DNA of 64,000 nt. Origin: Amphiscolops sp. MND2022. Its lineage: Eukaryota. Under the pieces are notes generated by a model. The model was given only the letters and a program-made list of their open reading frames with translations, ran no database searches and was not told the DNA's origin. The stretch spans positions 50,346,001 through 50,410,000 of the forward strand of contig OZ076409.1 in NCBI GenBank assembly GCA_964187785.1. The letters run 5' to 3'. The stretch's first letter is position 1. The number at the start of each line of letters is the position of its first letter. The translations under genes and the position numbers were made by a program. Positions 37,284 to 37,532 of the stretch are shown one piece after another.

Positions 37284-37532
37284 CTAATACCACCACAAGA
37301 ACTTATCACAGCGTTTCCCTCCGTAAAGTGGTGGACAAAGGCAACCTATAATGTTTTCTTCCACATGACTAAAACATTCTCCTTCGTTCATACAATAGTC
37401 TTTGTACTCTTCAATGCAGGGGTCGGGATTTCGTCCCACTTTTTCTGTAGTCCTTACTTGATATATAAACAATCCAGTAGTTATGACAATAAAAAACGCT
37501 CCTACTAATACTTTTGCTAGAGTCTCACTCAT
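37284..37532 (-). CDS. EGF-like growth factor (signal/anchor segment plus a single EGF domain)
   Basis: Hydrophobic N-terminus, then CIEEYKDYCMNEGECFSHVEENIIGCLCPPLYGGKRC = CX7CX5CX10CXCX8C with YxGxRC. Confidence 0.88.
   Translation of the reverse strand: MSETLAKVLVGAFFIVITTGLFIYQVRTTEKVGRNPDPCIEEYKDYCMNEGECFSHVEENIIGCLCPPLYGGKRCDKFLWWY

What the first reader, a model, noticed from the sequence alone, without database searches (positions are those of the whole stretch)
37284..37532. Polinton-encoded EGF-like growth factor
Seen: an intact intronless 82-aa ORF with a hydrophobic N-terminus and one EGF domain, CX7CX5CX10CXCX8C, with Tyr before Cys2 and YxGxRC. Established: this spacing and the Tyr/Gly/Arg residues characterise EGFR ligands, and poxviruses encode similarly compact growth factors. 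Inference: a virokine that manipulates host proliferation. I am not aware of one described in Polintons, but could not search.
Basis: partly seen in the sequence, partly recalled or inferred. Interest (0 to 1): 0.88.

Follow-up and report, generated by a model that had tools for sequence, protein, structure and literature searches.

The report
Polintons carrying a captured growth factor
Virus-like transposons (Polintons) in this animal's genome carry, in hundreds of copies, a shortened intron-free version of a host EGF-receptor growth factor that is kept intact by selection, probably to switch on host cell growth as poxvirus growth factors do.

Summary
The intact 82-aa ORF (minus strand) lies in a 17,486-bp Polinton with 6-bp target duplication. 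It is a fixed gene: 145 of 146 sibling sites picked by the neighbouring gene keep EGF sequence. Variants shared among young copies show purifying selection on the EGF domain (2 nonsynonymous/10 synonymous against 25/4 private, p=5e-5; antisense control none). Four further Polinton families in the genome (capsid 31-32% identical) carry homologues, nearly all ending seven residues after Cys6. Solved-structure hits are ErbB ligands first (13 of 13; top 28 of 40 by profile). The host has a six-exon transmembrane ligand gene with the diagnostic Cys4/Cys5 intron, 45-73% identical over the EGF module, and an EGFR-like gene. Best reading: a captured host EGFR ligand, stripped of anchor and tail, acting as a virokine. 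Capture and selection are shown from sequence; expression, secretion, binding and agonism are not. No report of a Polinton growth factor was found in six literature searches.

The parts
37284..37532 (-). Intronless 82-aa gene for an ErbB-ligand-type EGF protein
   Evidence: copies
37461..37511 (-). Hydrophobic segment, residues 8-24: signal peptide or type II signal-anchor (not resolved)
   Evidence: no purifying signal at residue level
37308..37418 (-). EGF module Cys39-Cys75, spacing 7-5-10-1-8, Tyr before Cys2, Tyr/Gly/Arg in the last loop
   Evidence: selection
37284..37307 (-). Seven-residue aromatic tail and stop; the tail matches the host ligand up to the point where its stalk begins
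   Evidence: 14 of 16 sampled family members end at Cys6+7
27513..28123 (.). Left terminal inverted repeat of the Polinton, preceded by the 6-bp target duplication
44388..44998 (.). Right terminal inverted repeat, followed by the same 6 bp
28160..28549 (-). Adenain-like maturation protease
   Evidence: Pfam Peptidase_C5 E 0.0065, below cut-off
28551..29894 (-). Probable major capsid protein
   Evidence: Atlas nearest cluster with DJR-like domain in 30% of members; no Pfam or PDB sequence hit
30275..31078 (-). Probable minor capsid protein (by size and position; label recalled)
   Evidence: conserved in all families examined; no library hit
31081..32019 (-). Retroviral-type integrase
   Evidence: Pfam rve E 1.7e-10
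32515..33345 (-). Packaging ATPase
   Evidence: Pfam Pox_A32 E 9e-7
37599..38096 (-). 165-aa upstream neighbour, unknown function, also under purifying selection; used as independent marker of sibling copies
40027..44361 (+). Probable B-family DNA polymerase region, present here as separate ORFs (40027-40974 with zinc fingers, 41081-41266, 41605-44361)
   Evidence: polymerase motifs read by eye (recalled); no Pfam or PDB hit; 26% identical to the 1422-aa ORF of a distant family

Best explanation
A Polinton virokine made from a host EGFR ligand. Shown from sequence: (1) the gene is a fixed part of this Polinton family and has homologues in four distant families of the same genome; (2) its EGF module is under purifying selection during element replication; (3) the host has a six-exon type I transmembrane ligand gene of the same subfamily, and the Polinton genes correspond to its extracellular part without introns, transmembrane anchor or tail, ending at Cys6+7; (4) the host has an EGFR-like gene. 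Inferred: capture through a spliced mRNA; the N-terminal hydrophobic segment sends the protein into the secretory route, as a cleaved signal peptide or a type II anchor, so that the EGF module is released or displayed outside without the regulated shedding that the host precursor needs; it binds host EGFR and acts as an agonist, pushing the carrier cell and its neighbours into a proliferative or survival state that favours element replication, integration and germline transmission. Odds by step: functional selected gene related to the host ligand 0.92; binds host EGFR 0.75; net agonist 0.58.
For: Fixed gene: 50 of 50 loci around family-I matches hold other element genes; of 146 sites picked by the neighbour gene, 133 have a protein-level EGF match within 2 kb and 12 of the other 13 have EGF DNA. 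Selection: in 54 young copies, EGF-module codon variants shared by 2 or more copies are 2 nonsynonymous/10 synonymous, private ones 25/4 (Fisher p 4.6e-5); in the 24 lower-ranked copies alone 1/7 against 17/2 (p 3e-4); antisense ORF over the same DNA shows nothing (p 0.78). Between the young and the older subfamily pS 0.27-0.31, pN 0.05-0.07. Distant families: 8 of 8 flanked sites and 3 of 3 carry ATPase, integrase, capsid and protease genes (capsid 31-32%, integrase about 50%, polymerase 24-26% identical to the window's), yet EGF modules stay 45-55% identical to the window's with saturated synonymous sites. Host gene: G000 C5:29,806,607-29,819,481, six exons, 246-codon open frame, AG/GT junctions, intron between Cys4 and Cys5, transmembrane segment starting about 16-20 residues after Cys6: both criteria of Stein and Staros, PMC1618406 (passages). 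Host module is 48% identical to the window's and 70-73% to family II. Receptor: L-domain exon on C3 whose best PDB hits are EGFRs (E 1e-8) ahead of IGF1R (E 5e-5), with domain-IV and furin-like exons downstream on the same strand. Precedent: poxvirus growth factors (PMC8785968 and PMC12390650 passages).
Against: Pfam EGF score is below cut-off and Atlas scores are below 0.9. The N-terminal half shows no residue-level constraint (9/4 shared against 22/5 private, p 0.44). In the 34 best-ranked copies alone the EGF test is not significant (p 0.074). Copies were first chosen by protein similarity, which favours in-frame ones; only 11 of 22 older-subfamily copies are intact, against 50 of 54 young ones. 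The window's family is no closer to the host ligand (48%) than to other families (45-55%), and the tree is mostly unresolved (17 of 25 inner branches open), so donor and number of captures are not established. Only single exons of the receptor were examined; its kinase was not. Sequence cannot tell agonist from antagonist.
Confidence: 0.58

Rival explanations
1. Antagonist or biased partial agonist: the captured module occupies host EGFR and dampens or re-routes signalling (wound, defence or apoptosis responses), or shields the receptor against other elements.
For: Same origin and selection evidence. Families differ widely between Cys1 and Cys4, which fits varied activity. Vaccinia growth factor signals differently from EGF through the same receptor (PMC13705586, abstract); adenovirus E3-RID down-regulates EGFR (PMC8785968 passages).
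Against: All receptor-contact positions known from agonists (Tyr before Cys2, Tyr, Gly, Arg before Cys6; roles recalled) are kept in at least 90% of 36 aligned members for Cys/Gly/Arg; described viral EGF proteins are mitogens.
Confidence: 0.17
2. Membrane-tethered attachment or entry factor: a type II anchored protein on particles or vesicles that uses host EGFR to dock or be taken up, rather than a diffusible growth signal.
For: Hydrophobic spans of about 25-35 residues in several families are long for signal peptides, and 9 of 16 sampled members have N-glycosylation sequons between that span and Cys1 (no null test), like a stalk.
Against: The gene lies outside the conserved capsid/ATPase/protease block and in different places in the two groups of families. 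Family-I members show a small-x-small pattern after a short hydrophobic core that fits a cleavage site (read by eye).
Confidence: 0.1
3. Passive cargo or host-domesticated gene: a retrocopy carried along, kept, if at all, for the host's benefit.
For: Mavericks carry host cargo genes (Widen et al. 2023 as cited in PMC11131425, passage). Private variants accumulate neutrally once inserted (ratio about 1.2).
Against: Constraint is seen in variants shared across dispersed copies, that is during element replication, to the same degree as in neighbouring element genes, and persists across families with saturated synonymous sites.
Confidence: 0.07
4. An ordinary EGF repeat or another six-cysteine peptide (toxin-like) with a target other than EGFR.
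For: Sub-threshold Pfam score; ant-venom EGF peptides are among the hits; Notch-type clusters appear among Atlas leads at 0.77-0.78.
Against: ErbB ligands rank first in both PDB searches; single module; no calcium-binding consensus (read by eye, consensus recalled); close match to a host gene meeting ligand criteria.
Confidence: 0.05
5. Reverse direction: the host gene's EGF exons came from, or were overwritten by, a Polinton copy.
For: The host module is closer to family II (70-73%) than to its homologue P0075 from another source (59%), and groups with family II at 96/90 support.
Against: The host gene has the ligand-type intron inside the module and five other exons that match P0075 at 74-85%; synonymous sites to family II are saturated (pS 0.90-0.96), so no recent conversion.
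Confidence: 0.03

Closest known systems
Poxvirus growth factors (VGF, SPGF, SFGF, MGF/M010L, TPV-15L)
   Same: Small virus-encoded single-EGF proteins of host origin that act on ErbB receptors; MGF is a short secreted form (PMC8785968, PMC12390650 passages; PMC1618406 passages).
   Different: Carried by a 17.5-kb integrating Polinton, not a large cytoplasmic virus; present as hundreds of germline copies; sequence tied to this host's own ligand, so an independent capture; no poxvirus protein among the hits whose names were shown; activity untested.
Cellular EGF-type ErbB ligands (HB-EGF, TGF-alpha, epiregulin, epigen, neuregulin EGF module, Spitz)
   Same: Cysteine spacing, Tyr/Gly/Arg positions, best PDB hits; one EGF module, soluble forms allowed in the EGF-type class (PMC4914847 section 6).
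   Different: No intron, no C-terminal transmembrane segment or cytoplasmic tail; hydrophobic segment is N-terminal; stops at Cys6+7.
Polinton/adintovirus accessory genes (Oncoid, Bcl2/IAP homologues, GasderminX, PLA2X, Cupiennin) and Maverick cargo genes
   Same: Host-manipulating or host-derived extras in Polintons (PMC8502044 passages; PMC11131425 passage).
   Different: Those described act inside the cell or on membranes; 'EGF' and 'growth factor' occur 0 times in the main texts of PMC8502044, PMC11131425 and bioRxiv 2025.02.07.637071. This would be an extracellular signalling ligand.
Ant-venom EGF-like peptides (U-myrmeciitoxin-Mg1a, U18-MYRTX)
   Same: About 80-aa precursor, N-terminal hydrophobic segment, one ligand-type EGF module, short tail.
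   Different: Host venom genes, not mobile-element genes; a parallel truncation of a ligand (origin recalled).

Membership tests
EGF-type ErbB/EGFR ligand | Single EGF module with ligand-type cysteine spacing and conserved Tyr/Gly/Arg | tested here: met
EGF-type ErbB/EGFR ligand | Splice site between Cys4 and Cys5 (PMC1618406) | tested here: not met
   Polinton gene is intronless; met by the host homologue. Drosophila spitz and keren also lack it.
EGF-type ErbB/EGFR ligand | Module close to a downstream transmembrane segment (PMC1618406) | tested here: not met
   ORF ends 7 residues after Cys6; met by the host homologue. Soluble EGF-type candidates are accepted in PMC4914847.
EGF-type ErbB/EGFR ligand | EGF fold with 1-3, 2-4, 5-6 disulphides | tested here: inconclusive
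   The one model obtained had mean pLDDT 54 and residues 32-82 under 50
EGF-type ErbB/EGFR ligand | Binds and activates an EGFR | not testable with these tools
   Host receptor is in widely spaced exons; no full-length protein found
Poxvirus growth factor family | Encoded by a poxvirus genome | tested here: not met
   Encoded by Polintons: works like one, is not a member
Virokine (functional class) | Virus-encoded homologue of a host extracellular ligand, maintained by selection | tested here: met
Virokine (functional class) | Expressed and secreted during infection or replication | tested here: inconclusive
   No RNA holder listed; hydrophobic N-terminus only
Calcium-binding or structural EGF repeat | Tandem modules and calcium-binding consensus | tested here: not met
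   One module; no EGF_CA match among 19 members at E<=1; such proteins rank below 28 ligand chains
Polinton/Maverick | 15-25 kb, long terminal inverted repeats, 6-bp target duplication | tested here: met
   17,486 bp; (criteria recalled)
Polinton/Maverick | Retroviral integrase, packaging ATPase, protease, capsid genes | tested here: met
   integrase, ATPase over cut-off; protease under; capsid, lead
Polinton/Maverick | Protein-primed B-family polymerase | tested here: inconclusive
   918-aa ORF with polymerase motifs by eye; no Pfam or PDB hit. PMC8502044 describes a divergent Beta class outside pfam03175.

The most novel reading that the evidence does not exclude
Polintons of this animal lineage depend on host EGFR signalling: several lineages have captured or swapped in the host's own ligand more than once and track it as it changes, driving an arms race at the ligand-receptor surface (the host module is 59% identical to its homologue from another source while the rest of the protein is 74-85%; p 0.02, or 0.004 without the cysteines). 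Hundreds of germline copies would then form a latent growth-factor load that links transposon silencing to stem- and germ-cell proliferation, a selfish element boosting the cell lineage that carries it.
Probability: 0.27. Interest if true: 0.93.

Novelty: new variant of a known kind. Interest (0 to 1): 0.82.

Why it matters
Virus-encoded EGFR ligands are described from poxviruses of vertebrates. A second, independent case in Polintons would show that these elements, still mostly known as transposons, invest in signalling between cells, which argues for a life cycle at tissue level (spread between cells, or competition between cell lineages) and not only copying within a nucleus. It gives a direct handle on an open question, what Polintons do to their animal hosts: a 44-residue module, its host counterpart and a host receptor are all identified, so binding and signalling can be tested with peptides. 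Five diverged families form a natural variant series against one receptor, and the fast-changing host module hints at conflict over a core developmental pathway.

Tried and rejected
Expression: no RNA holder was listed for window:36600-38200; this is no evidence either way, and no reads were laid. Free-virus context: scans of viral contigs (10 pattern matches) and metagenome contigs (24) confirmed no relative. Structure: AlphaFold2 on the shallow alignment A1 failed (pLDDT 54), so no fold search was run; a second model with a deeper alignment was not obtained. No complex prediction was sent: no unbroken host receptor protein was available (one search found none among 447 candidates) and a ligand-receptor pair would pass by likeness to solved structures. 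The overlapping plus-strand 82-aa ORF (37260-37508) was rejected as the real gene: no selection signal. Tree of 29 EGF modules (47 columns) was too weak to count captures. PDB sequence searches with the polymerase and capsid ORFs gave nothing useful. Earlier findings of the scan: none returned. Literature searches bearing on novelty listed no paper on a Polinton EGF; only listings and abstract starts were seen for most, subscription journals, Repbase reports and supplements (including the annotated maps of PMC8502044) were not seen and could hold such an annotation. Tzahar et al. 1998 was not held and is known here only as cited. The host organism was not identified.

Full report
Observation. 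The ORF at 37284-37532 (minus strand) is intact, 82 aa, with one six-cysteine module spaced 7-5-10-1-8, Tyr before Cys2 and Y-x-G-x-R-C. The pattern occurs once in the window and never in 100 shuffles. It lies in a 17,486-bp element (27513-44998) with long terminal inverted repeats and a 6-bp target duplication, an integrase, a packaging ATPase, a weak adenain-like protease and a probable double-jelly-roll capsid gene. The polymerase region is present as separate ORFs and found no library match; its assignment rests on motifs read by eye and on 26% identity to the long ORF of a distant family.

What kind of EGF module. Pfam scores it under the cut-off (E 0.059). Against solved structures all 13 hits are ErbB ligands or a venom peptide of that type, HB-EGF first (E 3.9e-7). 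A profile of 36 family members, two of them host-type ligands, ranks 28 ligand-type chains at E 6e-12 to 5e-5 before the first non-ligand at 1.9e-4; 29 of 40 hits are ligand-type. Atlas leads are EGF and epigen at 0.83-0.85, below the tool's 0.9 line.

A fixed gene of the family. A genome search gave 150 scored matches of 629 candidates, 54-100% identical. All 50 loci examined with flanks hold other element genes. As an independent test, 146 distinct sites were picked by the neighbouring 165-aa gene (150 scored of 237 candidates): 133 have an EGF match within 2 kb; of the other 13, ten have the full-length EGF DNA at 74-83% with gaps, two have part, one has none in the 400 bases fetched. Among 76 copies aligned at DNA level, 50 of 54 young and 11 of 22 older copies keep frame and all six cysteines; these were chosen by protein similarity, which favours intact ones.

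Selection. Variants found in one copy mostly arose after insertion; variants shared by dispersed copies passed through replication. In the EGF module of 54 young copies the shared class is 2 nonsynonymous to 10 synonymous and the private class 25 to 4 (p 4.6e-5). The result holds in the 24 lower-ranked copies (p 3e-4) and is not significant in the 34 top-ranked alone (p 0.074). The antisense ORF over the same bases and a second antisense ORF show no signal; neighbouring genes show the same direction, two of four significantly. The N-terminal half has no residue-level signal (p 0.44) although it stays hydrophobic.

Other families. A profile search of 1.84 billion representatives returned 97 proteins, most of them short, with an N-terminal hydrophobic segment and the same aromatic tail. 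Searches of the genome with two of them listed 148 and 52 further places (counted by eye, not de-duplicated by script; about 350 places in all with family I, a lower bound). Eight of eight sites fetched with 10-kb flanks, one tandem array, and three of three sites of a fifth family are Polintons whose capsid is 31-32% and integrase about 50% identical to the window's; there the EGF gene sits at a different position. EGF modules are 45-55% identical to the window's with synonymous sites at or near saturation, and 14 of 16 sampled members end exactly seven residues after Cys6. Two relatives were not found in this genome with the queries used (P0038 at E 1e-14, P0166 at 1e-25; 150 candidates scored each), and the P0166 type fills most of the 120 rows listed of 315 hits, so other genomes probably carry the family; their context could not be read.

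The host source. One hit, P0075, is a 237-aa protein with signal, EGF, transmembrane and cytoplasmic parts. Its homologue in this genome is a six-exon gene on C5 with a 246-codon open frame, canonical junctions, an intron between Cys4 and Cys5 and a transmembrane segment about 16-20 residues after Cys6. These are the two criteria that Stein and Staros give for ErbB ligands (PMC1618406, passages). Over 44 residues the host module is 48% identical to the window's, 48-57% to families III-V and 70-73% to family II; the last loop and tail are nearly the same, and the Polinton ORFs stop where the host stalk begins. An intron-free copy of a spliced gene points to capture through mRNA (inference). The host also has an EGFR-like gene on C3: an L-domain exon nearest to EGFRs, with domain-IV and furin-like exons 55-65 kb downstream; kinase exons were not examined.

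A hint of conflict. Host gene and P0075 are 85% identical in the signal region, 74% in the transmembrane segment, 76-77% in stalk and tail, but 59% in the EGF module and 61% in the linker (p 0.02 for the module against signal, stalk, membrane and tail). The host module groups with family II at 96/90 in an otherwise unresolved tree, while their synonymous sites are saturated. This fits repeated capture or tracking of a fast-changing ligand, but orthology of P0075 is not proven and 47 columns cannot fix a history.

Mechanism. Most likely the protein enters the secretory route by its N-terminal segment and presents the module outside the cell without the shedding step that a type I precursor needs (precursor cleavage: PMC4914847, passages), then activates host EGFR. 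Poxvirus growth factors do this to prime neighbouring cells (PMC8785968, passages), myxoma's being a short secreted form (PMC12390650, passage). Cleaved signal against type II anchor is open: spans are long in several families and 9 of 16 have sequons in the linker, the window's has none. Agonism is inferred, not shown; an antagonist or biased ligand (PMC13705586, abstract) is the main rival.

Novelty. It works like a poxvirus growth factor but is not one, and it fails the intron and downstream-membrane criteria of cellular ligands in the way a captured, truncated copy should. Described Polinton accessory genes include Oncoid, Bcl2/IAP and membrane-active proteins (PMC8502044, passages) and host cargo; the terms EGF and growth factor do not occur in the three Polinton papers searched, and six library searches listed no such report. 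Supplements, Repbase and subscription journals were not seen. Verdict: new variant of a known kind, interest 0.82.

Noticed in passing
window 36843-36930 and 37058-37252: Two arrays of a 31-bp A/T-rich unit directly downstream of the EGF gene; the distance to the next gene varies among siblings in steps near 30 bp. Possibly a regulatory or replication element.
   Followed up: no
window 37599-38096 (-): 165-aa Pro/acidic-rich gene upstream of the EGF gene, no Pfam match, strong purifying signal (1/17 shared against 51/24 private); candidate second host-manipulating gene.
   Followed up: partly
window 40027-44361 (+): Polymerase region begins with C2H2 zinc fingers rather than the OTU domain described for adintoviruses, and is in separate ORFs in this copy; a distant family has one 1422-aa ORF that also starts with zinc fingers.
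   Followed up: partly
L089-L090 (G000 C6:23.82-23.83 Mb); also L011, C4:77.579/77.582 Mb, C8:41.92 Mb: Tandem duplications of element segments that include the EGF gene (three copies 4.4-5.9 kb apart on C6).
   Followed up: no
window 3618-17588: Gypsy-like LTR retrotransposon (gag 16246-17685, pol 11270-16405, further ORFs on the plus strand) bounded by identical direct repeats 13.7 kb apart: very recent, unusually long.
   Followed up: no
window 19835-26218: BEL/Pao LTR retrotransposon with 98% identical repeats, pol in more than one frame.
   Followed up: no
window 50600-63000: Nested 2.2-kb and 4.3-5.2-kb repeats and short inverted-repeat elements of 22-bp units.
   Followed up: no
L057 (C7:73.69 Mb), L109 (C3:12.75 Mb), L110 (C12:26.50 Mb): A second L-domain exon and two further growth-factor-receptor domain-IV matches: an insulin receptor, more EGFR paralogues or furin-type proteases.
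   Followed up: no
P0075 against host gene L071-L072: EGF module and linker of the host ligand are less conserved than its signal, membrane and tail parts, the reverse of what is usual for such ligands (expectation recalled).
   Followed up: partly
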